NCBI GenBank assembly: GCA_965217865.1
Contig: CBDCJO010000002.1
Span: 2,304,001-2,368,000 of the forward strand
Direction of reading: 5' to 3'
From: Candidatus Latescibacterota bacterium
Lineage (GTDB): Bacteria > Latescibacterota > UBA2968 > SICM01
DNA: 64,000 bases
The notes below the pieces were generated by a model. That model ran no database searches, had not been told where the DNA came from, and worked only from the letters and a program-made list of their open reading frames with translations. The position numbers and the translations under genes were made by a program. How positions within the stretch are numbered: position 1 is the first letter of the stretch; each line of letters starts with the position of its first letter. Of the stretch, positions 56 through 53,120 are shown one piece after another.

Positions 56-312
56 TTCAATCTTCAATACTCAATCTTCAATTCCCCGAACCCTTCCACG
101 GCCTTTGCTTTTCCTGCTACTGCCACCTGCTATTGCTCTTCCCGCTCAGTTTCACGTCTCACGTTTGACGTTTGACGGCCTTTCAATCTTCAATTCCCCG
201 ACCCCCGCCCCTGCCTTTTCTTTTCCTGCTACCGCCACCTGCCACTGCTACTGCTTTTCTGACCTCTGACCTCTGACCTCTGACCTCCGGCCCCTGCTTT
301 TTGCATTTCCCC
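56..312. repeat. Intergenic short-tandem-repeat mosaic
   Basis: (tcttcaa)n, (ctgcca/ctgcta)n, (tctcacg/tttgacg)n and (ctgacct)x4 blocks. Confidence 0.9.
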
Positions 313-1191
313 CTATTCGGGAAAGCCGTCGTCGCGCGCATCGCGACGAAACCGGGCCATCCTCCGCCAATCGTGATCCTTGCCCACGACCCAGTCGGTC
401 GGAGGCCGTGGCTCACCGAGCAGCCACCGCTCCTCGTCCGTGAACTGGGACATGTCACCCGGATAGGGCACGTCCCGATGGATCGGGTGCATTAAGGTCG
501 GGCAGTACTGAAAATAACAGATCCGGCGGGGATGCTCGGACGCGTTCGGCTGCGCCTGATGCCAGATTCCGTTGTGAAAGCAGACAATCGTGCCTGCCTT
601 TGCCCTGACGGTAACATGGTTGTGGCTGAAATCCACTTCACGGTTCTTATTCCATCGCACGTAACGCAGCGATGTGCGGGCCTGTAATACAGGTTTGAGG
701 TGCGAGCCGCGAATCACCTCCAGAGTGCCCGAGTCCTCGTGCAGCGCATCCGAGAGAAAATAACCGAACCGCAGGGTGTGCATAGGGCAGCGGCCGTCTA
801 CTTCCGGGAATCCGACCGGACCGTCGGAATGCCAGCCAATGCTTCCACGACTCCGTTCCGGATTCTGGTATTTCACCCGCCACGTATCTTGTCCCAGGTG
901 AAACATCGGGCCAAAGACATCGTAGCTCAACTGCAAGGCGGGCTTGTACATCAGAAACTCACGGAAAACCGGGTCCGACTCCACGATATTCGTCTCTATG
1001 AAGAAACGCTGTTCGGGATCTTCCGCCCGGCCTTTTTCACAGAACGTGTCCATATAAGCTATGGCGCGATCGACCATGTCCTGCGGCAATGTGAACGGCA
1101 GGATGGCATAACTGTCTGCCCCTATGCGCGCAAGGATCTCGTCGCGCTGTGCATCGGTCAATGAGTGTTCGGCCTCTCTTGTTCCGTTCAT
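313..1191 (-). CDS. Phytanoyl-CoA dioxygenase (PhyH) family Fe(II)/2-oxoglutarate dioxygenase
   Basis: WHSDG (HxD), LEVIRGSH and FHNGIWH motifs give the HxD...H facial triad. Confidence 0.9.
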   Translation of the reverse strand: MNGTREAEHSLTDAQRDEILARIGADSYAILPFTLPQDMVDRAIAYMDTFCEKGRAEDPEQRFFIETNIVESDPVFREFLMYKPALQLSYDVFGPMFHLGQDTWRVKYQNPERSRGSIGWHSDGPVGFPEVDGRCPMHTLRFGYFLSDALHEDSGTLEVIRGSHLKPVLQARTSLRYVRWNKNREVDFSHNHVTVRAKAGTIVCFHNGIWHQAQPNASEHPRRICYFQYCPTLMHPIHRDVPYPGDMSQFTDEERWLLGEPRPPTDWVVGKDHDWRRMARFRRDARDDGFPE

Positions 1192-1266
1192 GGCCCTCTT
1201 TCATTCACGCATCGGGTTCGTATAGGACCTTCGCTGAAACCCTACACCCGATCCTGACTATCGGTT

Positions 1267-1326
1267 TTGACTTCCCTGACCTCTGACCTCCGGCCTCTGC
1301 TTTTTGCATTTCCATTTTGCATTCCC
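1267..1326. repeat. Intergenic repeat mosaic
   Basis: ctgacctctgacctccgg followed by (ttttgca/ttttcca)n. Confidence 0.85.
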
Positions 1327-2217
1327 TTAATCTGGAAACCCATCGTCCCGCGCATCGCGACGAAACCTCGACATGCGTTTCCATTCCTCTTCGGTTCCGA
1401 CCCCCCAGCTGGCGGGGGGGCGCGGCTCGCCCAGAAGCCAGCGCTCCTCGTCCGTGAAGGGCGACATATCCCCCGGATAGGGCGTGACCCGATGGAAGGA
1501 ATGCATCATTGTTGGGCAGTACTGAAAAAAACAGATCTTTCGCGGCTGATCCGACCGGTTCGGTTGGGCCTGATGCCAGATCGCATTGTGGAAGGCGACA
1601 ATCGTGCCTGCTTTTCCCTTCACCGTCACATGGTTGAGCGTAAAATTGTCGTCACGTTTATCCTCCCGCACGTAGCGAATCGACCGGCGGGCGTGCAGGA
1701 CCGTCTTCAGATGAGAGCCACGGATCACTTCCAGGGTCCCCGAATCGTCATGCAAGGCATCCGATAGAAGATAGCCGAAGCGCAACGTATGTAGGGCGCA
1801 GCGCCCGTCCACCTGGGGAAAGTTCACCGGGCCGTCAGAGTGCCAGGTAATTGATCCCGGATCTGCTAACGTCGTCAGATCCTTTGGATCATGGTATTTC
1901 ACGCGCCACGTATCCTGTCCCAGGTGAAACATCGGGCCAAAGACATCGTAGCTCAACTGCAAGGCAGGCTTGTACATCAGAAACTCGCGGAAAACCGGGT
2001 CCGACTCCACGATATTCGTCTCACTGAAATAATATTGCTGTGGGTTTTCTGCCCGGCCTTTATCGCAGCACGTGTCCATATAAGCAACGGCGCGATCGAT
2101 CATGTCCTGCGGCAATGTGAACGGCAGGATGACAAAACTTTCTGCCTCTATGCGCGCGAGGATCTCGTCGCGTTGTGCATCGGTCAATGAGTGTCCGGCC
2201 TCTGTTGTTCCTTTCAT
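1327..2217 (-). CDS. PhyH family dioxygenase, tandem paralog of 313..1191
   Basis: WHSDG and FHNAIWH motifs; long identical stretches with the neighbouring gene. Confidence 0.9.
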   Translation of the reverse strand: MKGTTEAGHSLTDAQRDEILARIEAESFVILPFTLPQDMIDRAVAYMDTCCDKGRAENPQQYYFSETNIVESDPVFREFLMYKPALQLSYDVFGPMFHLGQDTWRVKYHDPKDLTTLADPGSITWHSDGPVNFPQVDGRCALHTLRFGYLLSDALHDDSGTLEVIRGSHLKTVLHARRSIRYVREDKRDDNFTLNHVTVKGKAGTIVAFHNAIWHQAQPNRSDQPRKICFFQYCPTMMHSFHRVTPYPGDMSPFTDEERWLLGEPRPPASWGVGTEEEWKRMSRFRRDARDDGFPD

Positions 2218-2399
2218 AGCCCCCCTCCCTTAATACAAAGGTTTCGTATCGAAACGATCCTGGAATTGAAATAAAACCCGGGTTCAATCGTGTTATTAGA
2301 GTCTTACGATCCAACTTCTACTCAAGATCATACACATCTTTTTGTTTCGGTTGAATACTGCGAAACCCGCAAAAGGGAGTATGACATTCAACCGAACTT

Positions 2400-3553: not shown

Positions 3554-3574
3554 CTGCTACATCCTTTTGCACGC

Positions 3575-3699
3575 CTCATGTTTCACAGTTTCTCTTCCCC
3601 GACCCCTGATCTCCGACCTCCGACACCTGACTTTGCCTATCCTGTCTCCTGCTACTACTACTGCTACTACCTTTTCCCGTTTCACGTCTGACGTCTCAC
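3575..3699. repeat. Intergenic repeat mosaic
   Basis: ccgacct/ctgatct units, ctgcta/ctacta units, tttcacg-tctgacg-tctcacg; last unit overlaps the TGA of 3696..6923. Confidence 0.85.
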
Positions 3700-6600
3700 G
3701 ATTTCCCTTCCACCTCTCCGACCAACCCTTTATCTCGAACCGCCTTCAGCAAAACCTCATCCTCCATCAGTCTCAGAAACCGCAGCGCTTCAGCCCGGTC
3801 TCCCGGATCAGTGCCCAGAAGTGCCACCCGCGCAAGCAAGTCAGCCGCTTTCTGTTCTCCGCTCCTGGCCAGAGACGCCTGTGCGGTCCGCCGGACGATT
3901 GGATGCGGGTCGTCCAACATAGACTGAATCCTCTCCAGGTCCGGGGACGAGAAAGCGCCTATCCTGCGTAAGGCATCCTGTCGGACCTTCCAGTCCCGGC
4001 TCCCGAGATTTTCCATCAGAGTCTCATAACCAACCGGAAGCTCCGGGTCCACCTCCCACTGCCATCTATTGGCGGACGAATCCAGGGAAGCCATCGGATC
4101 GGTCGGAATGCCCGAAGACGGGTCCGGCATGCCGATGTAAAGATTTCCATCCCGTACGATCTGCCCGGCCCCTCGGAGCCAGGGATAGAAATTTTGATCC
4201 TTGCCGCAGCGCTGAACCTCTGAGGACGTTGCGATGCGCGGTCCGGACATCCGTTCTCCGGACAACTCCTGGTGATCAATGTCATCCCACGCGGTCCCAA
4301 AAGGCGTCACGCCGTAAATTTCCCCCTCTCGGGTCTCGATGGACAGGACCTCCCCGCTGATTTCCGAAACGTCGCCCTGCGTCAACGATTCGACGCGTAC
4401 CCTCTCCCGGCCCCAGGGGTTTGCGACCCGGCAGGTTCCGTCGTGTGTTCCCCGGACCGAAAAGGTGGCCACCTGATCGCCCCTCCGTTCGGAACTGAGC
4501 AGGAACCCCCCCTCGATCCTGAAGTTCGCGAACCGCATCGGTTCCCCCGGCAAGGCCCCCGGGAAAAGATGCACCACCCCGTGCCTAACTTGTAAAAGCC
4601 ACTCGTGGACACACGCGCAGAGGACATTCGTCCCCTCGACGATCGACAGCCGTCCGATCTCCCACTCCCCCTGTCTCAGATCGGCGAGGGCGACCTGTCC
4701 GTTCGGCTTCAGGCAGAACCTCAGAAACGGACTGTAGAACAGATTCCGGGAAAGATCAGGAAGGTCGAGCCGGGAAGCGACGATCGGAAGCCACCCCGAC
4801 GTGAACCCGACCGGTTCAAATCCTCCATCAAATCCCGGAAACGCCTCGTGCCTGGCCACACCCCGGTAAGCGATCAGGTCCGTCGTGATCTCCAGAGTCT
4901 TCAGGAATTTTTCATAAAGGGGATGGTTGGGTGTGACCTCGCAGACGGGATAGACCCCCGCGAACACCGAGGGGTGACAGCGGTACGGATGGGCGACCAT
5001 TTGGGACTCATGAACCGATTGGCCGTCCTGGGGGTAGTCGAATAGACGCTCTCTCATCTCCAGCCATGTCCGGTTCTCATCCTCCTCTCCAAGAACCTCC
5101 CCCGCCTCGATCAGGTGGTCCATGAGCGAACCGAACATCGCCCGGTCGATGGCAGGGTCGAACCCGGACCCGGATTGTTCGGGAGATTGCGATTCGACCA
5201 GGTGGACCCTGCCGTCCTTCCCCTCACTCATCACCGACTCGCCGTACCGGGCGCAAGAGGCCATGAGCGGATAGAGATAGTCTCGAAGAAAGGCCACGTC
5301 CCCGGTCAGCTTGTAGTGCTGCCAGAAATTAAGATGGAACCACGGCGTCGACGATTTGTGAGGGTTCGGATAGACGGTTGCCAGCCAGCGATGCCCCCCT
5401 GCCCATAGCGGGAGCGCCTGGTGCGCGACCTCCATTCCCCCGTGGGGAGAATGCTCGATGAACTCCGGGATCATCTCCAGGAAAGTGCGCACGTAGGGAT
5501 ACCCCAGATCGAGTCTGTTGGAGGGATAGATGGACCACCAGATCACGGGTACCTGTGCGTCCGTGGTGTACCCGTCCATCCAGGGTGGATTATCGCGCAT
5601 GTAGGATAGCCCCATAAAGGAGGTAGCCTGTTCGCTGCGCGACACGCACGCCTGCTGATACATCCCAAAGTAGTACGCGTGCTCGATGAACTTATCCGGC
5701 AAGTCCACGAACGATGCGTTCCAGTATCTGCCCCACCTGTCGCGATGCGTCGACCGGTCCGCTTCGGGATCCACGGATGCGCCTTCCGCTGTCATGTCCC
5801 TTGCTCGGGCAAGAGGCGTCCCGCACTCCCGGTCTGTGACGATCGATACCAGGATTTCAAAGTCGAACGAACGGGAAGACGGAAGTTTCAAGCTTCGTCC
5901 GTTCCTGTCCGCCACGTTCTCGTGGCCGACTTGCGCCTCGGAGCTTTTGACGATTGCCGAGATCGCATACGACATGTTCGGAAGCAAGTGTTCCATCCAG
6001 ATCTCCCGGTCTTTCCCGTCGTAGCCGATTGAGCTCGAAGCCCCTGTAGCAGGGAATTTATGAGCTGGCCGTTCCAGACTGATCCGTGGCGACACCGGCC
6101 CATCCGATCGGACGTGACAACGAATCCTCGCCAGGTTCCGGTCCCCCTGAACGTAAGCGGCCACACGAGCTTCCCACCCATCCCCTGACCAGGTGCGCTC
6201 GACCCTCCCCTCATACAGCGACAGCCGGTCCTCGAATCGGTCGGCTTCGGGATTGAAGGGCCTTCCTATGTCGATGCTTAACAGCCCCCCCCAGCAGCGG
6301 CCCGTCCCCACGCCCCGGTCATCTGTTGCCCAGAGATCCGTCTTCTGCATCCAGAAACAGAATCCTTCCCCTCCAGTAATCATGCCCCCGAAATCCCCAT
6401 TTCCGACCAAGAGCCCGTCCTGCCAGTGATCCACGGGACGTCGATAAACGATATCGTGCTGAGAAAGGTAGGCCTCCACGTCAGGCCGGAATCGAGATCC
6501 CGCAAAACAATCTCCCGCCCAGGCAGATTCCTGGATTCGCTGCCGCAGCGTCTCCCCCATTCGATCGAGGCGCAGGGGAATTCGCACGCGTTTTGGGACC

Positions 6601-7084: not shown

Positions 7085-7261
7085 TTTCCGAATCACGATC
7101 CACGGTCCCCGGTTTTTTCCGACCTCCGACCCTTGCCTTCGCATTTCCTGCTGCTGCCACCTGCCACTGCTTTTCCCTGCCTCCGCCACTAGTTCAGTTG
7201 AATCTTCAATATTTAATTTCCTTTGTCCCCCGACCTCTGACCCCTGCCTTTCCTGCCACTG
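7085..7261. repeat. Intergenic repeat mosaic
   Basis: ccgacct, ctgccac, tcttcaa and ctgaccc blocks. Confidence 0.85.
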
Positions 7262-9057: not shown

Positions 9058-9241
9058 ATTTTCATTTCCCCTGACTTCCGACCCACTGTCTTTGTTCCTG
9101 CCACTGCCCCCTACCACTGCTTCTGCTTTCCCTGACCGTCCTACCTCTGACCTACTGCTCTTCCCGTTTCACGTTTGACGTTTGACAGCTTTTCCGACCT
9201 CCGACCCCTTTTGCATTTTCCAATTTCCATTTTTCATTTCC
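9058..9241. repeat. Intergenic repeat mosaic
   Basis: ctgactt/ccgaccc, ctgccact, tttcacg-tttgacg-tttgaca, (ttttgca/ttttcca)n. Confidence 0.9.
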
Positions 9242-40088: not shown

Positions 40089-40091
40089 CCT

Positions 40092-41403: not shown

Positions 41404-41500
41404 TGGAGCGCGGCATGCGCACGACCGGATCCGGCTTCCGAGGGGGACGAGTCCGGTATGGCGGCACGTGTTCATCCTGCTTCGTCGAGGAGGCTGTCTG

Positions 41501-42409
41501 GTGCAACTGAGAGCTATCGCCAACACCGACCTGAAGGTCTCTCCCCTCTGCCTGGGCACCATGACCTTCGGCACACCCGTCGGGGAAAAGGACGCCATCG
41601 ACATCGTGCACTGGGCCCTGGACCACGGCCTGAACTTAATCGACACGGCCAACGTGTACGAGGGCTATACGCGCTGCATCGGCTCGGCTGGAGGCGTGGC
41701 CGAGGGGATCCTCGGCAGGGCGCTGGCCGTGCTCGCGACCAAGGTGGGGATGAAGATCGGGCCCGGCGAGGATGACGAGGGTTTGAGTCCCCCACACATC
41801 CTGCGCGAGTGCGACCGTAGCCTCGAGCGTCTGGCCACCGACTGGATCGATCTCTACTACATGCATAAGCCCGACGACAAAACGCCGATCGCCGAGTCGA
41901 TCCAGGCTTTCGCGGAGCTCGTGCAGGCCGGCAAGGTCCGGCACTGGGGACTGTCCAATTTCGACGCCGGCCAGGTACGGCAGGTGCTGCAAACCTGCGA
42001 CGAGGGTGGCTGGCCTCGGCCGGTGGTACACCAGCCCCCCTACAGTCTGCTCAACCGGGCGATCGAGCAAGATCTGCTGCCCCTGTGCCGGGAGGAAGAG
42101 ATCGCCGTGGTGCCCTACCAGGTGCTGCAGGGAGGGCTGCTCACGGGCAAGTATGCGGACCCGGCTGCGCCGCCGGAATGCTCGCGTGGTGCCGAGAAGC
42201 CTGAGTGGATCCCCATGCTGGAGGACGGCGATGCGCTGGAGGAACTGGTCCGGCTGCGTGCACGGGCCGAAGAGAAAGGCTTGAACCTGTTCGAGTACAC
42301 GATTCGCAAGACCTCGAACACACCAGGCATCACGAGCATCATCCTGGGGGTGAAGCGATCGGAGCAGATGGAGCAGGCCATTCGCACGCTTTCTGACGAC
42401 CGTGAATAG
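41501..42409 (+). CDS. Aldo/keto reductase
   Basis: LCLGTMTFG, IDTANVY, LATKV, IDLYYMH, WGLSN; GAGGAGG RBS before GTG at 41501. Confidence 0.9.
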   Translation: MQLRAIANTDLKVSPLCLGTMTFGTPVGEKDAIDIVHWALDHGLNLIDTANVYEGYTRCIGSAGGVAEGILGRALAVLATKVGMKIGPGEDDEGLSPPHILRECDRSLERLATDWIDLYYMHKPDDKTPIAESIQAFAELVQAGKVRHWGLSNFDAGQVRQVLQTCDEGGWPRPVVHQPPYSLLNRAIEQDLLPLCREEEIAVVPYQVLQGGLLTGKYADPAAPPECSRGAEKPEWIPMLEDGDALEELVRLRARAEEKGLNLFEYTIRKTSNTPGITSIILGVKRSEQMEQAIRTLSDDRE

Positions 42410-42415
42410 AGTGCC

Positions 42416-42636
42416 ATCGTAACCCCAAGCCGTTCATCAAATCGATCCACGCCTGGCACCCCACGCTCGTACCCCTCGGCGATGGGGAAATCCTGGCCGG
42501 CTTCGACCTGGCCGAGGCCATCTCCGCCAGCAACTACCGATCGTATGTTTCCCGCTCCACCGACGACGGCGAGATTTGGAGCGATCCGGTCAGACTCGCG
42601 CCCGGCCACATGTCACGGACTTCATCCGCCTCAGCC
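42416..42636 (+). pseudogene. Partial duplicate of the 5' end of 42922..44016
   Basis: Near-identical to 42953..43177, lacks a start and has a small deletion. Confidence 0.85.
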
Positions 42637-42762
42637 TGAAGGAGAGCTTGAGCTCAACATAGGCGGCTTCTTCCGGGCTGAGAGACAGGAAATCTGCAAG
42701 CGTCACCGATATCGCTGTCCCCCCCGACATCGTAAGGCCAAGCTAATCTGCCTGGATTTTGT

Positions 42763-42791
42763 TTGACAGCGGTTGCACAGCGACGTATCAT
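42763..42791 (+). promoter_or_regulatory. Sigma70-type promoter
   Basis: TTGACA-N17-TATCAT upstream of 42922. Confidence 0.7.
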
Positions 42792-42921
42792 ATTGCCTTT
42801 GCCTTGCCAACGGGGGACAGGGTTGCGCTGATCTTTCGGGTTCAATATCTGGGACGAGGCATCCCTTTCGCTTACGCTTGGGTCTCACGTTTTAACCCTT
42901 CTAAGACCAGAGGGGGGAATC

Positions 42922-44016
42922 ATGATCGAGGTTGTAGCCACCGGACTCGTCTATCGCAACCCAAAGTCGTTCATCAAATCGATCCATGCCTGGCACCCCA
43001 CGCTCGTACCCCTCGGCGATGGGGAAATCCTGGCCGGCTTCGACCTGGCCGAGGCCATCTCCGCCACAAACTACCGATCGTATGTTTCCCGCTCCACCGA
43101 CCACGGCGAAACCTGGAGCGATCCGGTCAGACTCGCCCCTGGCCACACCGATGTTACGGACTTCATCCGCCTCAGCCGGCTCTCAGACGGCACGATCATC
43201 GGCGTGGGGGTTCGCAAGGAGCCGGATGAAGAGACCCAGGGGTGGAACCCCGAAACCTATGGGTGCCGAGAGGGAGAGTGGTTCACGATCCGGAGCAGCG
43301 ATAAAGGAGTGACCTGGAGCGATCCGGCTGTGTTCGAGCCGACGTTCACCGGGCAGCCTTACGAGCTGTGTCACGCCATCGTCGAGGTGAGTGATGGCCG
43401 GCTGCTGTTGCCGACCGGATTGGTGCGCACCTGGGAGGGTGACGCGCCGCACGGGCTCATGACCATCGCCATGGTCTCGCACGATCAAGGCGCGACCTGG
43501 CCGGATTCCATCGAGCTGTTCAAAGACCCCGAAGGTGAGGTCCTCTACCACGAAGTGAGTCTGATAGAGCTGCCGGGCGGCGGGTTGCTGACTGTGGCGT
43601 GGCCATTCAACCCCTCGGTGGGGCAGACCGTTCTTAAGGTGCCGTTTGCGGTGGCGCCCGACGGCAAACAGTTCACGGTGCGCGGATCGACGGAGATACC
43701 CGGCGAGACGACCAAACTCGTCAGTCTCGGTGACAATCGCGTGCTGGCCCTCCTGCGGTGTACGGACAAACCCGGGTTGTGGGCGTACGTGGCGAGGTTG
43801 GAGGGGAATCAGTGGATCAACGAAGCCGAAGCGCCCGTGTGGCAAGGGTCCGAGTCCAGGATGTTCGGCGAGACAGCCGCGGCAGCCGAACTGGCCGCCC
43901 TGCACTTCGGTTTTCCAAATATGATCCGCCTGCCCGACGGCGACGTTCTCGGGGCCTTCTGGTGTCGCGAGGACTGCATCCACAATATCCGCTGGTTGCG
44001 TATCCGGGTGGACTGA
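42922..44016 (+). CDS. BNR/Asp-box sialidase-like protein
   Basis: STDHGETW, SSDKGVTW, SHDQGATW; FGFP at the position of GYP. Confidence 0.82.
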   Translation: MIEVVATGLVYRNPKSFIKSIHAWHPTLVPLGDGEILAGFDLAEAISATNYRSYVSRSTDHGETWSDPVRLAPGHTDVTDFIRLSRLSDGTIIGVGVRKEPDEETQGWNPETYGCREGEWFTIRSSDKGVTWSDPAVFEPTFTGQPYELCHAIVEVSDGRLLLPTGLVRTWEGDAPHGLMTIAMVSHDQGATWPDSIELFKDPEGEVLYHEVSLIELPGGGLLTVAWPFNPSVGQTVLKVPFAVAPDGKQFTVRGSTEIPGETTKLVSLGDNRVLALLRCTDKPGLWAYVARLEGNQWINEAEAPVWQGSESRMFGETAAAAELAALHFGFPNMIRLPDGDVLGAFWCREDCIHNIRWLRIRVD

Positions 44017-44062
44017 GGTTTCGAGAGGTGGGTAATAAGGTGTGATGGACGGAACAGTCTAG

Positions 44063-44251
44063 CACCAAAGCGGCTCGCGCTACGGCAGGGTGCAGGACCT
44101 GGTCAATACCGTCCAGCTGGTCGCGGAAGGGAAAATAAAGTCCATCATTCCAGACCTGTTTCCCCTCGAGGAGGCAAACGAGGCGATGGCTTCCCTGCGC
44201 GCCGGTAAGGTGTTGGGGCGAACGGTCCTCCTGACGGAGGCGGGTTGGTAG
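44063..44251 (+). pseudogene. C-terminal remnant of a zinc-type alcohol dehydrogenase (not in the ORF track)
   Basis: GSRYGRVQDLVNTVQLVAEGKIKSIIPDLFPLEEANEAMASLRAGKVLGRTVL. Confidence 0.75.
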
Positions 44252-44378
44252 GCTACATGAGTTCATTCACCCACGGCCAAGGGGATCTGGTGACCCATCA
44301 TCTGCTTGACGCCTTTTTGCCGGGTTGCCCTGCGATGTCGGATGGTGTGCCGTCCCGAGAGGCCCTGAGGGAGGTGAC

Positions 44379-45305
44379 ATGAGCGCTTACGATGATTTTC
44401 GACGAAAGATCGCGGGGCCGATGGCGCCGCTGCCGATCTTCTACAAGGACGACCTCAGCGTCGACTACGACGGCATCGGCAAATACACGGCGTGGCTGGT
44501 CCAGGGCGGGATCAGGAACATGTGCCTGACCTACAGCTACAGCCGGATCGCCTTCGTGACCCAGGCCGAGCTGATCGAGGTGACGCGCACGATCGCGCGA
44601 GTCGTGGGGGACCGTGCGGTCTTCATCGGCTGCACACGGATGGAATCCGCTGAGGAAGCCGTCGAATCCGTGCGGCAAATCCGCGAGGCCGGGGCCCACG
44701 CCGCGTTCGTCATGCCGCAGATGGAATGGCTGTCCGGGACGCTCTGTCGGAACTTCCTGCGCCACGTGGCCGCAGCGACCGACGTTCCCCTGCTATTCGT
44801 CAGTCTTCCGACGCCTGGGGATCCGAGCAAACCGAACTTGAGTGCCGACGACTACGAGGTGTTGCTGGAGCACGAGAACATCGTGGGAGTCAAGGAAGAC
44901 TTTAACGACATCCCCTACCGCATGGCGCTCATCCGCAGATACGGTCAGCGTCTCTGTATTATCGGAGGCGGGGTGCTGCGCAACTACCTGTTCGTGCACC
45001 GGTATCCACAGCAGGGAGAGTTGGCCGGGCACTTCAGTCCTCGGGCGTCCGGGCGCTTCGTGCAGCTGCTCGATGAGGGCTGTCTGGACGAGGCCATCAC
45101 CCTGATCGAGCAGCGCGATGTGGCCGTCAACGATTTCCCCCAGGGGCTGGACTGGCAGTCGAAAAACCAGGTCTACATGAAGGGCCTGGGGTTCGCCGAG
45201 AGCGTGCGGATGCGTCCCCCGCTCGTGGCGGCCACTGGCGACCAGGTCCGTGACGTGATCAAGCGGATGCGCAAGTACCCCACTGTCTTCGAAATGCCTT
45301 CCTGA
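44379..45305 (+). CDS. DHDPS/NAL-family aldolase, close paralog of 36671..37615
   Basis: MSAYDDFRRKIAGP vs MSIYEDFRKKIKGP; NIVGVKEDFN; GGAGG RBS. Confidence 0.85.
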   Translation: MSAYDDFRRKIAGPMAPLPIFYKDDLSVDYDGIGKYTAWLVQGGIRNMCLTYSYSRIAFVTQAELIEVTRTIARVVGDRAVFIGCTRMESAEEAVESVRQIREAGAHAAFVMPQMEWLSGTLCRNFLRHVAAATDVPLLFVSLPTPGDPSKPNLSADDYEVLLEHENIVGVKEDFNDIPYRMALIRRYGQRLCIIGGGVLRNYLFVHRYPQQGELAGHFSPRASGRFVQLLDEGCLDEAITLIEQRDVAVNDFPQGLDWQSKNQVYMKGLGFAESVRMRPPLVAATGDQVRDVIKRMRKYPTVFEMPS

Positions 45306-45356
45306 ATCCGGTCCTGAAGGCCCAACCGCTGAGTTGTTATCACTGCGAGCCAACTT

Positions 45357-46889
45357 TTGAGCACCCGACCGAACATCCTTCTGATCCTCACCGACCAGCA
45401 CGCGCCGAAGGTGGCCGGGTTCGCCGGGGACCCGGATGTACGCACGCAGAACCTTGACGCCCTGGCCCGGGGTTCGGTGCAGTTCCAGCAGGCGATCTGT
45501 CCTTCCCCGTGCTGCACGCCATCACGCATGTGCATGCTGACCGGCAAAGACGTCGAGCATTGTGCCGCTTGGGCCAACCACTGGATCATCTTTCCGGAGC
45601 ACCTCACCTGGCCGCAGCATTTCGCCGATAACGGCTACACCACCTGCCTCGTCGGCAAAATGCACTTCGGCGGGCGGGACCAGATGCAGGGCTTCACGCA
45701 TCGACCCTACGGTGACCTGCGGCACGGATTGGGTCACCAGCCCGATCCCCTGTCCATGTTTCCGGGTTACCACCACGTGGAAAGCGCTGGGGTCACGGAA
45801 ATACCTGAAAGTCTCTTACAGGACGTCGTGGTCACGGGAGAGACACTGTCGTTCCTTCGTGAGCATCAGGATCAAAATCCGGACAAGCCGTGGTTCGTGT
45901 GTGCCGGGTACTCGCGGCCTCATTCGCCTCTGACGGCGCCGGGTCGGTACATTCGACGTTACCGCGACCGATTGCCCAAAGTTGAAGAACCGAAGCCGGA
46001 CCGGCTCGAGCCCTTCGCCCGGAATCTTTATGACCGGATCTCCGGTGCGTTAAACGCAGAGCAGAGACAGCGAGGCCTGGAAGCCTATTACGCGTGTGTG
46101 GACTTCGTGGATGACTGCATCGGGGAGCTACTGGAAGGTCTGGAAGAGAGCGGCCTGCTTGACAACACGATCGTGATCTACACCAGTGACCACGGCGAAA
46201 TGGCGGGTGTGCACGGGTTGTGGCAGAAGGGGGTGTATTACGAGCCGTCGGTAGGAGTTCCCCTGCTCATGCAGGGGCCGGGGATCGCGCCGGGTCACCT
46301 CGACGTGAACCGGGTGATCTCGTTGATCGACCTGTACCCGACCACAAGTGCGCTGTGCGGTCTGCCGGTTCCGGAGGGCCTGGATGGTGTGGATTTCAGC
46401 CGTGTTTTGCGCGATCCCGCCTCAGCGGATGCTCCCCGGCCTTATGCCATCTCACAGATGTTTGCCCAGGGATCGCGTGTCGCGTCCATGCAGGTCCCGA
46501 TCGACACACCGTATCGCGCGTGGCGGGCCATCCGGACCGAAGGGTGGAAATATATCGACGTGCAGGGCGGTGACCCCCTGTTGTTCGATTTGCGGAACGA
46601 CCCGGGCGAATCGACGAACCTGGCAGTAGGCCATCCGGACCACGCCGCCCGCTGTCAGGAGCTGCGCGCGTTCCTGTTCGAAGGTTTCAGCTGGAAGCAA
46701 GCCATGCGTCAACTGGAAGACGACCGGCGACGGATTGGGGAACACCTTTCGGGACTCAAACCGACCGTGCCCAATCAATACATGCTTGCGGATGGACGGA
46801 CCTTTGATGCCGAGGCTGGGCTGTATGGAGCCCGATGGCTGGTCGAACCCGACGCGACCGGCGGCATCATCCCACAGCAGTTTGGGTAA
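45357..46889 (+). CDS. Formylglycine-dependent (S1) sulfatase, choline-sulfatase-like
   Basis: RPNILLILTDQH, CTPSR, GKMH, YTSDHG. Confidence 0.92.
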   Translation: MSTRPNILLILTDQHAPKVAGFAGDPDVRTQNLDALARGSVQFQQAICPSPCCTPSRMCMLTGKDVEHCAAWANHWIIFPEHLTWPQHFADNGYTTCLVGKMHFGGRDQMQGFTHRPYGDLRHGLGHQPDPLSMFPGYHHVESAGVTEIPESLLQDVVVTGETLSFLREHQDQNPDKPWFVCAGYSRPHSPLTAPGRYIRRYRDRLPKVEEPKPDRLEPFARNLYDRISGALNAEQRQRGLEAYYACVDFVDDCIGELLEGLEESGLLDNTIVIYTSDHGEMAGVHGLWQKGVYYEPSVGVPLLMQGPGIAPGHLDVNRVISLIDLYPTTSALCGLPVPEGLDGVDFSRVLRDPASADAPRPYAISQMFAQGSRVASMQVPIDTPYRAWRAIRTEGWKYIDVQGGDPLLFDLRNDPGESTNLAVGHPDHAARCQELRAFLFEGFSWKQAMRQLEDDRRRIGEHLSGLKPTVPNQYMLADGRTFDAEAGLYGARWLVEPDATGGIIPQQFG

Positions 46890-47069
46890 TAACCGCATGA
46901 GTTTGGGTCCACGATCCTTCTTCGAAAACCTTGTACACCCCTTTTTCTACTATCCTGCAAAGCTAACCCTCGCACATTGAACCCGCATCATCCACACTCC
47001 GGTCCTCATTGAATGGCACTTTGAAATAAACCAGGCGATGCTTGGATGCCTATCCTCTTTTTCAGTGGT

Positions 47070-48383
47070 CTACCGCTGGGGGCTTTCCTCGACGGCGTCT
47101 GTTCCGGATTCCGGGGTAGTTCGCCGGGGGAAGACCCCGGGGGGATAGTCCAATTGCTGTCCCCGGGGCCGTACGAAGTCGGGGCTGTACCGGCTTCCCA
47201 CGATGTAGGTGTGAAACCACGGGTGAAGGATGAGGGTTTCTCCGTACTCCACCTGATCCTCGGGTTTCAAACCGGCGATCTTGCTGATTGCGCAGACCGT
47301 GAACAGGCTGTTGTCGGAAAGCTGCACGGACTGGGGATACCCCACCCCTTTGGGCAGGGATTCATCCCTGATGATTTTCTCGTTTTCGACGTCCCAGCTC
47401 CGGCCTTCGTCGTGACTGATGCATGCCCGCACACCTGTGGGGTGGCGGCGATGGGCGTAGGTGGCCATGATGTCGCCGTTCATGAGGTTGATCAGCTTTG
47501 CGGGAAATCCCCAGAAAGGCACCTGTTCCGGAACGCTCCAGGTGAGACCTCCGTCCTCGGAGGTGCTCTGCCATAGGTTCTGGTCCGCTGCAAACTGGGG
47601 TCGTGCAACGGCCAGGATCCGGCCGGAGGGCATGGCCAGCAGGCTGGTTTCGTTGTATCCGATCTCGTCCGCGGGGTCGAAGAACACCGGCGTGAAGGTC
47701 CAGGTCCTTCCGCTGTCCGTGGAACGGGTTGACCAGACCCGGGTCGTTCGCTCGGTTCGGTTCAACCGTCCGTACACGGCTCCCAGGATGGCCCCGTCGG
47801 GAAGGAGAAGCCCGGATCCGAAAAATCCTACCATGTGGGCAGCCATAGGAAAATCCCCGTGCGGCGCATTATCTATCGGGCTGCTCTTCCAGGTTTTTCC
47901 GTCGTCCTCTGAACGCCAGGTCACGATCTCCGGGTAAACGGCCACGATTCCCCCAAACGCATCATCGACCTGCCATCCTTGAGCCTCGAGTTCAGCCCTT
48001 TTCTCTGCCTTGTACAGGCGATAGGCCATCAGTCCATCGGGCTTGTGCAGATGCCCCAGTCCCTCGCCCTCCAGATGCTCCCGAAGAGAATCCCCGCCCA
48101 GCGTCTGCCCTCCGATGTAGACTCGTGTGCCATCAGGGGCTCTGACCCCGGGGGGAGGAAGCTGATCTTCCGATTCCTCCCACGAGATCCCCCCATCCTC
48201 TGACTGAACCTGCGTTGTCCTGTGATCCTCCACGAAGAAGTCATCGTAGAGTCCGGCCTCCGATTCCGAACTGATGCTCACGATCAGCCGGTCGTCATCC
48301 GCCAGATAAATCACCGCGCTGTTGCTTGAATAACCGGTAAGATCCAACAACGTCATGTCGAATTTCCACGGACCAGCAGCCAT
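47070..48383 (-). CDS. Asp-box sialidase-like protein, distant relative of the paralog array
   Basis: PWKFD N-terminus, five Asp boxes, YNETS, VGYPQSVQLSD. Confidence 0.82.
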   Translation of the reverse strand: MAAGPWKFDMTLLDLTGYSSNSAVIYLADDDRLIVSISSESEAGLYDDFFVEDHRTTQVQSEDGGISWEESEDQLPPPGVRAPDGTRVYIGGQTLGGDSLREHLEGEGLGHLHKPDGLMAYRLYKAEKRAELEAQGWQVDDAFGGIVAVYPEIVTWRSEDDGKTWKSSPIDNAPHGDFPMAAHMVGFFGSGLLLPDGAILGAVYGRLNRTERTTRVWSTRSTDSGRTWTFTPVFFDPADEIGYNETSLLAMPSGRILAVARPQFAADQNLWQSTSEDGGLTWSVPEQVPFWGFPAKLINLMNGDIMATYAHRRHPTGVRACISHDEGRSWDVENEKIIRDESLPKGVGYPQSVQLSDNSLFTVCAISKIAGLKPEDQVEYGETLILHPWFHTYIVGSRYSPDFVRPRGQQLDYPPGVFPRRTTPESGTDAVEESPQR

Positions 48384-48477
48384 CTTAGTACACTCCTTTA
48401 TTCCATTCCAGACTCAGGTTCGGCACGACAACGGTGTCTTCGAGTCTGCGAAAGAGGATTTGGGTTGTTCATAGCAA

Positions 48478-48534
48478 CTTGCACTTTTCATGTTGAAATT
48501 TGCAATTTTCTCCCCTGACCTCCGGCCTCTTCCT
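48478..48534. repeat. Short intergenic repeat mosaic
   Basis: cttgcac/tttgcaa units and ctgacct-ccggcct. Confidence 0.6.
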
Positions 48535-49732
48535 TTATCCTGACCTCGGATAATTATACTTCTCCCCAGGCTCCGGAACCTCCAGCTTCGGACCATATGT
48601 TCCCGTGTAACTCCTTGACCATCGACTGCCACCCGCGAACGGCCAGGGCCTCCCCTCATCGTCATACTTCGTGGCGCTATATGCAGTGAACAGCGTCCCG
48701 TCGGAAAGCTCCACGGTGTTGACCTCCGAAACACGTGCTATGGGAATGTCATCACGGATGATGACCTCCTCGCTCCAGGTTTTGCCCACGTCAGACGTGA
48801 ACCTTGCCCGCGCACCGTATGGCTCTGCAAACCGCCTCTGATAAGAACAGATAATGGTCCCATCCTGCAAGAGCGTCGGTCGCGGATGCTTGGCACGAAT
48901 TGGGGTCTGCACGGGCTCAGACCAGTTCCTCCCTCCGTCTGAAGACCATACAGAATACGCGAAGTTGCCCAGCTCAGTACGCAGCATGACGAATATGTTC
49001 CCGTCTCCGCGATGATCGGAAAAGTCTCCGTAAACCCGGCGTCTGAACACGAGTGTCGCCCGTCTGCCATTAGGATCAGGTCCCAGTTTACGCCCCTGTC
49101 GGAACTTAAAAGGACATAGGTGCTGGACCGCCCATCATAGTAATCAGAGTTTCCCCGTTTCTTGAGATACCTCTTGTCCGGGCCATACCCGTACGCGATG
49201 AAGATCAACGTCCCGTCTTCCAGCAATCTCAATGGACCCCGCGCCACGAGTGCGCGAAAAATGGAAGTTGATCACCAATCGATCGCTCTTCCCAGGTCTG
49301 ACCCCCATCCTTCGAAACCTTCATAAAAATTCCATCGATATACGCACAATAGTCGTGCACTTCACCGTGATCAAGGACCATATAACCCTCGGCTTTGAGA
49401 CGCCCGATCTCGGAGCGCGGGCAGCGAGTCCAGCCCGTACCGCCCATCTCGACCATCGTCTTGTCCGGCAGCACCACACCTCCGTGGGAAGGCGCTGGCC
49501 AGGGGCGATCCGTGATCTTCCAGGTCAACCCGCCGTCTTCGGACAGCAGTACCACAGATGTTTCCTGGGCTCTCCAGGCATCGGTGCTCTGACTGGCATC
49601 GAAACAGATGCTTACAGGCATCCATAGCCGGTCCTTTCCATCGCAATAGAGGAGACCCTGGTTCACTTCTTCATACTGGGGACTACACAGGATATCCACA
49701 TCCCATTTCCATGGCTTTGTTGGATCCAGCAT
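48535..49732 (-). CDS. Asp-box propeller paralog E, two 1-nt deletions
   Basis: Three ORFs join by restoring one base at ~49249 (FAH|FVARG) and ~49011 (PII|RGDG). Confidence 0.8.
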
Positions 49733-49754: not shown

Positions 49755-50323
49755 TTTTCATTGCAACTTGCACTTTGCTATTTCCCTCGCCTGATCCTGC
49801 CTTTGCTCTTCCTGCCATTGCTACTGCTTTTCCCGTTTCACGTCTCAAGTTTGACGTTTCACGTTTTTTCTTCCCCCTGACCTCCGACCACCATTTTCGT
49901 AGCCTGTTGCAGTTGCTTAACGCTCTCCTTCCGGAGAGAACCAGCCTGTATCTGCGCGGCCAGTTCCCGGCTGCCTCAAACCGTGTCTATCTGCTTCCTG
50001 GGAAAAGAGATACCGTTTGTACTCCGACGGGCATTTTATGAGCATTCGGTAGTGCGTCCAGGTCAATTTTGAACGCGCGTTCAAAATTGACCTGGACGGG
50101 TGAAACCGAAGAAATTCTTACAAATCCTCACGCTGGCCCCCGGCTTTTCACGTCCAGGTTAATTCTGCGCGCGCGCGCAGAATTGGAAAGCGATTTCGTT
50201 ACGTAACATACTGTAAATATTTATGATAAGTGAATTTATTGTCTCGGACTATAATAAGCCTGTTAGCTCATGCCTTGCCACTGCTACTGCATTTTCGTCC
50301 CCCTACCTCCCGAGCCTCGTTCT
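49755..50323. repeat. Intergenic repeat mosaic (49755..49897, 50269..50323) interrupted by a palindrome-bearing insert
   Basis: Standard repeat words on both sides of an unrelated ~360 bp segment. Confidence 0.75.
50055..50098. repeat. Perfect 44-bp palindrome; related 24-bp palindrome at 50161..50184
   Basis: cgtccaggtcaattttgaacgc|gcgttcaaaattgacctggacg; aattctgcgcgc|gcgcgcagaatt. Confidence 0.95.
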
Positions 50324-51547
50324 TCAATCCAACCTCGGATAATTATACTTCTCCCCGGCCTCTGGCACTTCCAGGTTCGGGCCGTATGGGCTCCGGTAGC
50401 TCCTCGTCCACCGACTCCCACCCAGAAACGGCCAATCCCTCCCCTCATCGTCGTACTTCTTGGCACCGAACGAAGTGAAAAGCGTCCCGTCCGACAGTTC
50501 CACTGTATTGATCCCACCCAGCCCGTCATCTACGGGGATACAGTCACGGATCACCACCTCGTCGCTCCAGGTTTTCCCCATATCCGAAGTGAACCTTGCA
50601 CGCACACCGTAGGGCGGAGCAAACCGCCTTTGATACGAGCAGGCTACCGTCCCGTCCCTCAAGGCCGTCGGTTCAGGATGCTTGGCACGGATCGGGGTCT
50701 GAGCCGGCTCAGACCAGGTCTTCCCTCCGTCGGAAGACCATACGGAATACGCGAAGTTGCTCAGCGACGTGTGCAGCATAACGAATATGTTCCCATCTCC
50801 TTGGACTATGGAGAAAGTCTCGGTAAACCCGGAGTCTGAACACGACTTTCGCCCATCCGCCATCAGGACCAAGTCCCAATTCGCACCGTCATCAGCACTC
50901 CGTAAGATATACGTGCTGGATCTGCCGCTATTGTAGTTGGAGCGCAACCCTTTCTGTCCCCATGGCCCCCCCTCTGCCGGATGCCTGTCTTCCTTCCCAT
51001 ACCCGTACGCGATGAAGATCAACGTCCCGTCGTCCAGCAAACGCAGCGGACCCCGGGCAACGAAGTGCGCGAAGAAAGGAAGCTGGTCGCGAATCGATCG
51101 CTCCTCCCAGGTCTGACCTTCATCCCGGGAAACCTTCACCAATACCTCATTGATGTACGCACAGTAGTCGTGTTCTTCCCCAAGGTCCCAAACCATATAA
51201 CCCTCGGCCTCGAGCCGTTCGATCTCGGTTCGGGGCAATCGCGTCCAGCCCGTACCCCCCATTTCGACCATCGTCTTGTCCGAAAGAACGACATGGCTGT
51301 GAGAAAGCCCCGGGCGAGGACGATCCGTGATCTGCCAGGTCAGCCCCCCGTCTTCCGAAAGCAGGACGATCGGTGTCTCTACCGAGGTCCAGGCGTCGGT
51401 GTCCTGACTGGCGTCGAAGCAGATGCTTACAGGCAGCCAGAGACGGTCCTGTTCTTCGCAATGGAGCGGCCCATGGCCCATGCCCTCGTACTGCGGGCTG
51501 CGCAGGATGTCTACATCCCATTTCCACGGCTTTGATGGATCCAGCAT
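50324..51547 (-). CDS. Asp-box propeller paralog F, intact
   Basis: MLDPSKPWKWD start after GGAGG; five Asp boxes; conserved C-terminus. Confidence 0.88.
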   Translation of the reverse strand: MLDPSKPWKWDVDILRSPQYEGMGHGPLHCEEQDRLWLPVSICFDASQDTDAWTSVETPIVLLSEDGGLTWQITDRPRPGLSHSHVVLSDKTMVEMGGTGWTRLPRTEIERLEAEGYMVWDLGEEHDYCAYINEVLVKVSRDEGQTWEERSIRDQLPFFAHFVARGPLRLLDDGTLIFIAYGYGKEDRHPAEGGPWGQKGLRSNYNSGRSSTYILRSADDGANWDLVLMADGRKSCSDSGFTETFSIVQGDGNIFVMLHTSLSNFAYSVWSSDGGKTWSEPAQTPIRAKHPEPTALRDGTVACSYQRRFAPPYGVRARFTSDMGKTWSDEVVIRDCIPVDDGLGGINTVELSDGTLFTSFGAKKYDDEGRDWPFLGGSRWTRSYRSPYGPNLEVPEAGEKYNYPRLD

Positions 51548-51636
51548 AAGATGCCCTCCAGTCGTCAGCTTATTTGGCACTGATACGGTTCACATTTCCT
51601 TCTGTTCTGACCCTGGCCGACTGAGTTGAATGTAAG

Positions 51637-51785
51637 TTTTCTTCTGTATTCTGTATTCCGGGGGGGATAGGTGGAAGGGGCATTCTTCCCCGTCTCACGG
51701 TTCACGGTTTTTCTTTTCCCTGACCCCCGACTTCTGACCTCTGGGTTTTCCCGACCCCTGGCACCTGACATCCGAGCCCTTTCCC
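51637..51785. repeat. Intergenic repeat mosaic
   Basis: (tattctg)n, tctcacg/ttcacg, ctgaccc-ccgactt-ctgacct. Confidence 0.85.
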
Positions 51786-52973
51786 TTACCCTCCTCTCGG
51801 GTAATTATACTTCTCCCCGGCCTCCGGCACTTCCAGCTTCGGACCATACGGTCCCTTATAGCTCCTTGTCCACCGGCTGCCACCCACAAACGGCCAACCC
51901 CTCGCTTCATCGTCGTATTTCTTGGCGTCGAACGAGGTGAACAAAGTCCTGTCCGACAGTTCCACCGTGTTGGGCTGATGAAGGCCGTCCGAGATCGGGA
52001 TGTCATCTCGGATGACGACCTCCCCGGTCCAGGTCTTGCCGTAATCAAGGGTAAACCTTGCCCGCACCCCGAAGGGCGGATCGAAGCGTCGCTGATAGGT
52101 ACACAGGACGGTCCCGTCCCGGAGGAGCGTCACCCTCGGGTGCTTTGCTCGCACGGGCGTCTCAAGCGGTTCGGTCCACGTCTGTCCCCCGTCCGAGGAC
52201 CACACGCTGTAAGCGAAGTGTCCCATCTGGGTGCGGAGCATGCAAAAGATCCTGCCATCCCCGTGCACGACGTGGTAATTCTCTCCGAACCCTCTCGCCG
52301 TAGGACCGAATCGTCCATCCGCAATCTGGATCAATTCCCACTTCCTTCCCCCATCCGTAGACCGCACACACCACGCATGGCTCAATCCTCCCAGTTCACT
52401 GGATTTGGACAATCCCTCCGGTTTATAGCCATATGCGAAATTGATGAGTGACCCGTCGTCGAGCATATGTAGAGCCTCCATCGAGAACCGGGCGAAAAAG
52501 GGCAGCTTCTCGTGGAGCCGATCTTCCTTCCATGTCTGTCCCCCATCCGTCGAATGCCTGACGACCATGCCATAATTGACGGCGCAATAATCGTGTTTCT
52601 CCCCCAGGTCCCATACGTAGTACCCTTCCGCCCTCAGCCGGTCGATCTCTGATCGGGGATATCGCTCCCAACCGTACGTGACAGTCTCTATGATTGTTCC
52701 GTCCGCCAGGACGCGACGGTTCTCCAGAGGCGGTCCGGGCCATGGATCGTCCGTGATCTCCCACGTGAAACCACCGTCCTTCGACAACAACAAAACATGC
52801 GTGGCCTGCGCGGCCCATGCATCCGTCGTCTCCGCTTCATCAAAACTGATCATAACGGGACTCCAGAGGAAGTCATTTTCGTCACAGTACAGGTTGCCCT
52901 GGCCCAGGGCTTCGTACTGTGGACTCCGCAGGATATCCACATCGATTTTCCACGACTTTGATGGATCCAACAT
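51786..52973 (-). CDS. Asp-box propeller paralog G, intact, more divergent
   Basis: MLDPSKSWKID start after GGAGG; Asp boxes; GGSRWTRSYKGPYGPKLEVP tail. Confidence 0.88.
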   Translation of the reverse strand: MLDPSKSWKIDVDILRSPQYEALGQGNLYCDENDFLWSPVMISFDEAETTDAWAAQATHVLLLSKDGGFTWEITDDPWPGPPLENRRVLADGTIIETVTYGWERYPRSEIDRLRAEGYYVWDLGEKHDYCAVNYGMVVRHSTDGGQTWKEDRLHEKLPFFARFSMEALHMLDDGSLINFAYGYKPEGLSKSSELGGLSHAWCVRSTDGGRKWELIQIADGRFGPTARGFGENYHVVHGDGRIFCMLRTQMGHFAYSVWSSDGGQTWTEPLETPVRAKHPRVTLLRDGTVLCTYQRRFDPPFGVRARFTLDYGKTWTGEVVIRDDIPISDGLHQPNTVELSDRTLFTSFDAKKYDDEARGWPFVGGSRWTRSYKGPYGPKLEVPEAGEKYNYPRGG

Positions 52974-53011
52974 GAAACCTCCCATAGTCAGTCCGATTGA
53001 CTCCGGTTTAG

Positions 53012-53120
53012 GTCTTCTTCTGTATTCTGTATTCTCCGATCCTGCACCCTGCCTCTCCCCTTTGCGGTTTGCCGTCTGCCGTTTCACGGCTTTTCTTTCC
53101 CTGACCTCCGACTTCTAACC
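53012..53120. repeat. Intergenic repeat mosaic
   Basis: (tattctg)n, (tttgccg/tctgccg)n, ctgacct-ccgactt-ctaacct. Confidence 0.85.

What the first reader, a model, noticed from the sequence alone, without database searches (positions are those of the whole stretch)
56..53120. Intergenic spacers written in a shuffled vocabulary of 6-7 short-repeat words, strand-locked to transcription
Seen: about 18 spacers between minus-strand genes are mosaics of the same words. On the mRNA strand these are (RGAGGTC)n, (GCAGTR)n with a GCAGGAAAAGCAAAGGC-like tail, (ARACGTS)n, (TYGAAGA)n, (AAAATGS)n, (CAGAATA)n and (GTATGG)n. Order and copy number change per locus, orientation never flips, and the mRNA strand is always purine-rich. 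They are absent from 34.7-47 kb and nearly absent beyond 53.2 kb. Known: heptamer short tandemly repeated sequences (STRR) exist in cyanobacteria with unclear function. Inference: a dispersed multi-word element, possibly C-poor spacers that avoid Rho in long operons, binding tracks for an RNA/DNA-binding protein, or homology and scars that drive gene insertion and duplication. Local slippage alone does not explain the same words recurring in different orders.
Basis: partly seen in the sequence, partly recalled or inferred. Interest (0 to 1): 0.75.

Follow-up and report, generated by a model that had tools for sequence, protein, structure and literature searches.

The report
Replication-oriented stacks of hairpin half-arms
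The repeated 6-7-letter 'words' between these genes are real and genome-wide: they are stacked halves of small hairpin elements, several matching the arms of four-helix-bundle gene cassettes, and they point along the inferred direction of DNA replication more than along transcription, which suggests they were likely written at the replication fork.

Summary
Observation confirmed: 17 window spacers hold multi-word stacks and 5 hold one word; short-read contigs match them. Genome-wide there are 194 single-polarity stacks. Their purine strand is the G-rich (inferred leading) strand in 169 of 194. Beside lagging-strand genes, 26 of 36 run against transcription. A blind skew segmentation switches inside dnaA. 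Two complete, asymmetric hairpin families are oriented the same way (48 of 51; 18 of 18), and IS families are not. Four words are arms of this genome's four four-helix-bundle (PF05635, 23S-IVS protein) cassettes. In two same-family genomes several of the words form mostly intact hairpins (57-70% paired, versus 13% here). Best reading: stacked left arms of IVS-like hairpin elements, likely built by fork-coupled templated copying that drops the far arm. The mechanism is inferred, not shown. The scan had found the heptamer-hairpin/four-helix-bundle link on other DNA; I found no note or paper on replication polarity, and one paper reports none in Xanthomonas. In relatives the polarity is mixed. 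Rho avoidance is at most a secondary filter.

The parts
54..308 (-). Stack E-A-B-D-C-B-D, starting at the stop of a PhyH gene
   Evidence: contigs
1273..1324 (-). Stack E-A after the stop of the paralogous PhyH-like gene; same opening as the first stack
3570..3703 (-). Stack C-(B)-A-C; strain X7 has a 22-nt module insertion and a 14-nt deletion here
7094..7248 (-). Stack A-D-B-A-G
9068..9242 (-). Stack E-A-C-A(-B)-A
11763..11960 (-). Stack E-A-B ending in a complete D hairpin (left arm, conserved core, inverted right arm at about 11763-11790)
14219..14307 (-). Stack B-A-D
17028..17058 (-). Stack C-B in a divergent spacer beside an IS200 tnpA
17683..17824 (-). Stack C-B-A-A-D in a convergent spacer
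20077..20099 (-). Single E arm
23065..23218 (-). Stack A-C-B-A-D
25069..25170 (-). Stack A-B-A
27995..28012 (-).
32198..32380 (-). Stack A-C-F-A between BNR-repeat gene copies
33644..33830 (-). Stack A-B, a degenerate D hairpin, then A and E-like words: modules continue after a complete hairpin
   Evidence: read by eye
34559..34643 (-). Stack C-B-A in a divergent spacer
38157..49330 (.). Block of opposite G-skew starting near the IS at 38467-39879; covers most of the word-free stretch (context, not part of the element)
48511..48531 (-). Single A arm (E-like words follow)
49829..49892 (-). Stack A-C(-B)
50276..50366 (-). Short stack A-B at a BNR-gene stop
51640..51744 (-). Stack A-C-F
53016..53116 (-). 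Stack A-C-F
58533..58549 (-). Single weak A array

Best explanation
The spacers hold stacks of single arms of word-armed hairpin elements, four of whose words frame four-helix-bundle (23S-IVS protein) cassettes in this genome, laid down in the direction of the inferred leading strand and likely built at the replication fork by templated copying that keeps the near arm and drops the far arm. SHOWN: (1) the words, their grammar and their start at the neighbouring gene's edge; (2) the match of words to cassette arms; (3) mostly intact hairpins in relatives versus mostly solo arms here; (4) polarity with the G-rich strand, for stacks and for two complete asymmetric hairpin families. INFERRED: the G-rich strand is the historical leading strand. 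A nascent leading strand entering a hairpin would stall with a purine arm at its 3' end. It would then pair by a few bases with the same word at another locus, copy the next 20-30-base module (sometimes a whole D or G element), and rejoin past the original hairpin. Repeats of this would give one-way mosaics with a word grammar. Slippage then tunes copy number. Selection likely thins stacks that land beside start codons or put the C-rich strand on an mRNA. The stacks are probably neutral scars, not a regulatory code.
For: POLARITY: 169 of 194 stacks are purine-on-G-rich strand, 146 of 157 where skew is strong. Lagging-gene spacers 26 of 36, convergent 27 of 33, divergent 14 of 21. 26 of 31 skew blocks agree by majority. 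Solo arrays 263 of 287. Background: 50.6% purine in word-free spacers, 160 of 323 five-mer doublets; largest IS family 34:33. The skew switch falls inside dnaA. D elements 48 of 51, all 11 in convergent or divergent spacers; G cores 18 of 18, 6 beside lagging genes (read by eye). Where hairpin and stack co-occur the origin-proximal side is longer in 55 of 65. ARM IDENTITY: the four PF05635 cassettes carry C, J, B and E arms. Of 114 cassette loci, 35 have C-family flanks, 16 E and 1 A; 63 have an inverted repeat of 10 nt or more. RELATIVES: paired arrays 24 of 42 (G002) and 16 of 23 (G001) versus 53 of 399 here. GRAMMAR: C>B 39 versus 9, A>D 33 versus 7, D>C 20 versus 3; 139 distinct strings in 194 stacks; tight junctions. 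STRAINS differ by whole words and modules.
Against: No step of the mechanism was observed. Only 4 of 194 stacks share an exact 30-mer across two families, so any copying is old, short or error-prone. Transcription has an independent effect (z 3.7), and 3 of 7 D elements beside lagging genes follow the mRNA. In E. coli, hairpin slippage is reported to prefer the lagging strand (PMC1851657, passages), whereas this model needs leading-strand events. Polarity is not general: solo arrays lean leading in G065 (18:3, confounded with gene strand) and G001 (9:1), but not in G002 (20:14) or pooled genus g13 (14:16). One G002 family follows mRNA 9:1. Full cassettes in relatives are unbiased (15:11 and 4:6 among callable loci). 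D, F and G were not shown to be cassette arms, and the D core did not match 157 cassette 3' ends significantly. Rare 7-8-mer control doublets also lean leading (58 of 81), probably because they include word variants. The genome has about 55 skew blocks and 9.3% contamination, so the present replichores are uncertain.
Confidence: 0.5

Rival explanations
1. Cut and rejoin. SbcCD cuts hairpins on the lagging-strand template, the 5' tail (far arm) is resected, and Ku with LigD extends and joins the 3' tail (near arm) by microhomology, capturing further modules.
For: It predicts the same polarity. G000 has sbcD and Ku next to a 768-aa gene that looks like LigD (by eye). The two Ku-positive genomes tested have few paired arrays (19%, 23%) and leading-biased solo arms; the three groups without a Ku match have 48-66% paired. 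PMC1851657 (passages) describes SbcCD-type deletions running from near the centre to outside the palindrome.
Against: Two genomes versus three groups, small hand-picked regions, and incomplete MAGs. sbcD is in all 5 genomes tested. It does not by itself orient intact D and G elements. G001 has no Ku match yet leans leading 9:1.
Confidence: 0.2
2. Dedicated oriented insertion. A mobility system, perhaps using the four-helix-bundle protein, inserts hairpin elements into single-stranded DNA of the lagging-strand template next to stop codons or earlier elements; right arms are deleted afterwards.
For: Complete D and G elements are oriented. All 4 cassettes in G000 are sense to the G-rich strand. 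Modules continue after a complete hairpin (window 33644-33830). IS200/IS605 and group IIC introns behave this way (recalled, not checked).
Against: Cassettes in relatives are unbiased. No linked transposase, RT or integron integrase: the three RT matches sit apart from words, two of them beside IS elements, and no integrase reaches the cut-off. It needs a second, one-sided deletion step; right-arm remnants are at chance level (4 of 120 versus 2.1).
Confidence: 0.2
3. Transcription-selected spacers: C-poor runs that avoid Rho, or binding tracks for an RNA-binding protein.
For: Stacks are 16.5% C on the purine strand; rho is present. Occupancy is 123 of 922 leading-gene spacers versus 27 of 742 lagging-gene spacers, and the transcription term is significant.
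Against: 26 of 36 lagging-gene stacks and 59 of 72 solo arrays put the C-rich strand on the mRNA. Convergent spacers are as often occupied (35 of 293). Intact hairpins fold no better on mRNA (28:28). Stacks differ between strains.
Confidence: 0.07
4. Local slippage plus strand-biased mutation, or an assembly artefact.
For: Copy number differs between strains by whole units; the assembly has many skew blocks.
Against: The same words occur at hundreds of loci with a grammar; background purine bias is near 50%; short-read contigs match exactly.
Confidence: 0.03

Closest known systems
Intergenic heptamer repeats of Xanthomonas and Nostoc (Rehm et al. 2015, PMC4692102; passages read) and cyanobacterial STRR (recalled)
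   Same: 7-base tandem units, intergenic, within about 50 bp after a stop on the sense strand or before a start on the antisense strand; some inverted pairs.
   Different: One dominant word per genome there; about ten families stacked with a grammar here. That paper reports no leading/lagging preference in Xanthomonas; here 87% follow the G-rich strand.
Heptamer direct repeats of Beggiatoaceae, Cyanobacteria and Bacteroidetes (MacGregor 2015, PMC4679880; abstract and sections 10 and 23 read)
   Same: Intergenic heptamer sets, sometimes mixed with other heptamers; unknown origin. All 8 sampled convergent sets in Microcystis shared one chromosomal orientation, left unexplored.
   Different: Mostly a single word just upstream of start codons, read as translational control; here stacks mostly start at stop codons and track replication.
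ORF-bearing 23S rRNA intervening sequences (S23p, PF05635; Coxiella, PMC4990558; passages read)
   Same: Four-helix-bundle gene between inverted repeats, with heptamer direct repeats of variable number at the 5' end. Four such cassettes in this genome carry four of the words.
   Different: Window loci have no gene, are not in rRNA, and mostly lack the right arm, so they cannot form the stem that RNase III cuts.
Replication-direction-dependent palindrome deletion in E. coli (PMC1851657 and PMC12708500; passages read)
   Same: Hairpin rearrangements whose asymmetry depends on fork direction; both slippage and SbcCD routes are described.
   Different: Those events delete sequence. They are not described as adding modules from other loci or orienting intact elements.
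REP/BIME mosaics, IS200/IS605 and group IIC introns (recalled, not read)
   Same: Mosaic intergenic hairpin elements; insertion oriented by the fork.
   Different: No linked mobilising enzyme found; the units are tandem words, mostly unpaired.

Membership tests
Intergenic heptamer repeats (STRR / Rehm class) | Tandem 7-base units enriched in intergenic DNA | tested here: met
   for example 78 intergenic versus 2 coding doublets for the top word; 6- and 8-base families also occur
Intergenic heptamer repeats (STRR / Rehm class) | Close to a stop on the sense strand or a start on the antisense strand | tested here: met
   95 of 111 sense stacks within 40 nt of the stop; 19 of 29 antisense stacks within 40 nt of the start
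Intergenic heptamer repeats (STRR / Rehm class) | No leading/lagging preference (as reported for Xanthomonas) | tested here: not met
Intergenic heptamer repeats (STRR / Rehm class) | G-quadruplex formation | not tested
   No call
IVS-like four-helix-bundle cassette | PF05635 gene between the arms | tested here: not met
   No match in the window; 5 matches (4 loci) elsewhere in the genome
IVS-like four-helix-bundle cassette | Arms built from the same words | tested here: met
   B, C, E and J in G000; C, E and A in other genomes. Not shown for D, F, G, H
IVS-like four-helix-bundle cassette | Inverted arms forming a stem | tested here: not met
   53 of 399 arrays paired; D and G elements are the main exception
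IVS-like four-helix-bundle cassette | RNase III excision from the transcript | not testable with these tools
   No RNA holder listed
Fork-oriented ssDNA insertion (IS200/IS605-like) | Orientation fixed by replication direction | tested here: met
   leading strand inferred from skew
Fork-oriented ssDNA insertion (IS200/IS605-like) | Cognate HUH transposase acting on the element ends | tested here: inconclusive
   19 Y1_Tnp matches, mostly near-identical IS200 copies; no link to the words shown
MITE | Target-site duplication | not tested
   No empty orthologous sites available
Retroelement (DGR, retron, group II intron) | RT gene linked to the repeats | tested here: not met
   Three RT matches, none with words in the 400 nt printed on each side
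Integron cassette array | Integron integrase | tested here: not met
   No match over the TIGR02249 cut-off in G000, which is 96% complete

The most novel reading that the evidence does not exclude
A fork-coupled writing process records successive visits of hairpin elements as a one-way tape. Each event adds one 20-30-base arm, or a whole D or G element, to the 3' end of the previous one on the leading strand. Stacks would then be a readable, time-ordered history and a marker of ancestral replication direction: they keep their polarity in 71 of 83 cases inside blocks now inverted against the chromosome arm. The same process, driven by the four-helix-bundle protein or by Ku/LigD, could be the long-missing source of bacterial heptamer repeats.
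Probability: 0.2. Interest if true: 0.8.

Novelty: new variant of a known kind. Interest (0 to 1): 0.55.

Why it matters
The origin of bacterial heptamer repeats (STRR and relatives) and the role of the 23S-IVS protein are old open questions. This genome adds a directional clue: the arms, and two intact elements, follow replication rather than transcription, and the same words are intact hairpins in sister genomes. That gives a testable claim about which strand, which arm and which enzymes, and it moves attention from regulatory roles to DNA transactions at the fork. If the polarity is special to this lineage, it is a curiosity of one rearranged genome.

Tried and rejected
1. Transcription lock: rejected as the primary rule. 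2. Present-day chromosome arm as predictor: fits 110 of 194 stacks versus 169 for local skew. 3. RT involvement: three RT matches, unlinked. 4. GxxExxY family PF13366: no match. 5. Integron integrase: none over cut-off. 6. sbcD: does not separate the 5 genomes tested. 7. Other ORFs between same-family inverted arms: none convincing beyond the PF05635 loci. 8. Orientation of full cassettes in relatives: unbiased, and 18 of 45 phylum loci and 31 of 41 other-phylum loci were not callable; the uncorrected skew was discarded. 9. D core as a cassette 3' end: it reads like the last codons of such a gene with one frameshift, but the profile search was not significant. 10. Folding asymmetry: none in G000; leading-favoured in G002 (11:1) and G001 (4:1), which C-to-T mutation bias could explain. 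11. Cross-phylum loci were too sparse to test polarity. 12. Alignment-based locus searches failed for lack of conserved stretches, so only relatives of the L001 protein were sampled; this inflates the C-family count. 13. No RNA holder listed. 14. Literature: searches returned 0 papers; searches returned none whose listing describes replication-polarised heptamer stacks. Subscription journals are not covered, no supplements were read, two older E. coli papers were not held, and PMC13648401 (abstract only) was not used. 15. Relatives were sampled only in part: 0.71 of 4.9 Mb (G002), 0.38 of 7.1 Mb (G001), 0.46 of 5.7 Mb (G065), 0.34 Mb pooled for g13; the G065 and g13 regions were mostly chosen around cassettes.
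Full report
Labels. All families were derived by computation from perfect intergenic doublets. Genes were called with my own dicodon model. A 'stack' is a spacer with two or more families, all in one polarity.

1. The observation. The window lies at G000:C2:2304001-2368000 of a 6.43-Mb, two-contig genome. It holds 17 multi-family and 5 single-family spacers, among PhyH, glycoside-hydrolase and BNR-repeat genes. Genome-wide there are 1810 arrays in 4767 spacers, against 234 after shuffling. Short-read contigs reproduce several spacers exactly, and strain X7 differs by whole words and one 22-base module. The word-poor stretch largely overlaps a block of opposite skew at 38.2-49.3 kb, and spacers beyond 53 kb are short.

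2. Polarity follows replication more than transcription. Among codirectional multi-family spacers, 111 are purine-only on the mRNA, 29 pyrimidine-only, 61 purine then pyrimidine, 4 the reverse and 17 more complex. I estimated the leading strand from G/C skew at four-fold codon sites, corrected for gene strand and independent of the spacers. A blind two-state segmentation switches at C2:2240482, inside dnaA. Beside leading-strand genes 101 of 104 stacks are purine on mRNA; beside lagging-strand genes only 10 of 36 are (Fisher p 5e-17). Convergent spacers follow the G-rich strand in 27 of 33 and divergent spacers in 14 of 21. Overall 169 of 194 do, and 146 of 157 where skew is strong; 26 of 31 blocks agree by majority. 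Background is 50.6% purine and 160 of 323 control doublets; rare 7-8-mer doublets lean 58 of 81. IS families show no such bias. Both terms survive a joint fit, with z 6.4 for replication and 3.7 for transcription. The genome has about 55 skew blocks, with boundaries nearer long repeats than random. Stacks follow local skew in 71 of 83 cases inside blocks inverted against the arm, so the signal is historical, or the assembly is shuffled at IS copies.

3. Intact elements are oriented too. D hairpins have an asymmetric core of about 50 bases: 48 of 51 lie the same way on the G-rich strand, including 11 of 11 in convergent or divergent spacers and 4 of 7 beside lagging genes. A profile search gives 65 of 73. 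Of 21 G hairpins, 18 share one core, all in one orientation, 6 of them beside lagging genes (read by eye). Polarity therefore cannot come from arm loss alone.

4. What the words are. The genome has four PF05635 loci. One has a C left arm with an IS just downstream, one has J hairpins on both sides, one frameshifted gene has a B left arm and inverted right arm, and one has E arms. Among 114 cassette loci, mostly relatives of the C-armed protein, 35 have C-family flanks, 16 E and 1 A, and 63 have an inverted repeat of at least 10 bases (no shuffle control). In sampled DNA of same-family genomes A, C and E words form short-loop hairpins, with 24 of 42 arrays paired in G002 and 16 of 23 in G001, against 53 of 399 here. 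A looser count gives 48%, 66% and 19%. Modules here are 18-26 bases at the median, with right-arm remnants at chance level. D, F, G and H were not tied to cassettes.

5. Grammar and placement. Transitions carry 0.52 bits against 0.25 in shuffles, with 139 distinct strings in 194 stacks. Junctions are tight and A/G-rich, but only 4 stacks share an exact 30-mer across two families. Sense stacks start a median 5 bases after a stop. Occupancy is 13% and 12% where the origin-side neighbour ends in a stop, and 4% where it is a start. Flanking genes are paralogs about four times as often as at word-free spacers.

6. Mechanism (inferred). On either strand a hairpin begins with its purine arm. A nascent leading strand that stalls on entering the hairpin would end in purine words, could pair with the same word elsewhere, copy onward and rejoin beyond the far arm. 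This one process would give the polarity, the missing right arms, the grammar and the oriented D and G elements (confidence 0.5). Rivals are SbcCD cutting with Ku/LigD joining (0.2), dedicated oriented insertion followed by arm loss (0.2), transcription-level selection (0.07) and slippage or artefact (0.03). G000 has Ku; G001 and G002 show no match; 20 of 140 phylum genomes do. The two Ku-positive genomes sampled have the fewest paired arrays, which is a lead only. Against generality: polarity in relatives is mixed and full cassettes are unbiased. E. coli slippage is reported to prefer the lagging strand (PMC1851657, passages).

7. Relation to what is known. Heptamer repeats with the same stop/start geometry are described, with no leading/lagging preference in Xanthomonas (PMC4692102, passages). 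Mixed heptamer sets of unknown origin are in PMC4679880 (abstract and two sections). Heptamers at the 5' end of an S23p-bearing IVS are in PMC4990558 (passages). STRR, REP/BIME, IS200/IS605 and group IIC behaviour are recalled. Earlier scan notes report the hairpin/four-helix-bundle link in other genomes; a look-up for replication polarity found no note holding all words. Ten paper searches listed nothing on polarised stacks, within an open-access library.

8. Verdict. A real feature and a new variant of a known kind: not a member of the IVS cassette family in the strict sense (no gene, no stem at most loci), but built from its arms. Interest 0.55. The replication polarity is well supported in this genome and makes the origin of heptamer repeats testable; the mechanism and the generality are open.

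Noticed in passing
L019, L020, L023, L024 (G001, G035, G008, G012): A four-helix-bundle cassette with inverted word arms appears to sit inside a protein-coding gene (DNA methylase or restriction-like, judged by eye), at the same site in four genomes, like an intervening sequence in an mRNA.
   Followed up: no
G000:C2:2240482; whole genome: Four-fold-site skew switches inside dnaA; about 55 skew blocks and 365 long repeat copies on C2 suggest many IS-mediated inversions or mis-joins.
   Followed up: partly
G000:C2:1097804-1101931: Ku next to a 768-aa LigD-like gene; Ku matched 20 of 140 phylum genomes and neither same-family genome.
   Followed up: partly
window 29.7-34.5 kb and 47-53 kb: Several tandem paralogous BNR-repeat genes, some apparently frameshifted, with stacks after several of their stops.
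   Followed up: partly
window 2410-2466 and 7010-7090; genome-wide: Other GC-rich palindromic repeat families share the spacers; some lean to one replication strand (30:7, 20:8, 16:5), others do not (19:17, 11:13).
   Followed up: partly
G000:C2:451254, 487638, 814892: Three RT matches, two of them near-identical copies among IS fragments; they look like defence-type RTs (by eye).
   Followed up: no
G002 and G001 hairpins: Intact hairpins fold better on the inferred leading strand (11:1 and 4:1) but not on the mRNA strand.
   Followed up: partly
G000:C2 IS200 copies, including window 17201-17647: All five full copies between dnaA and 5.4 Mb are on the plus strand, two of them inside minus-skew blocks, hinting that those blocks were inverted before the IS200 spread.
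   Followed up: no
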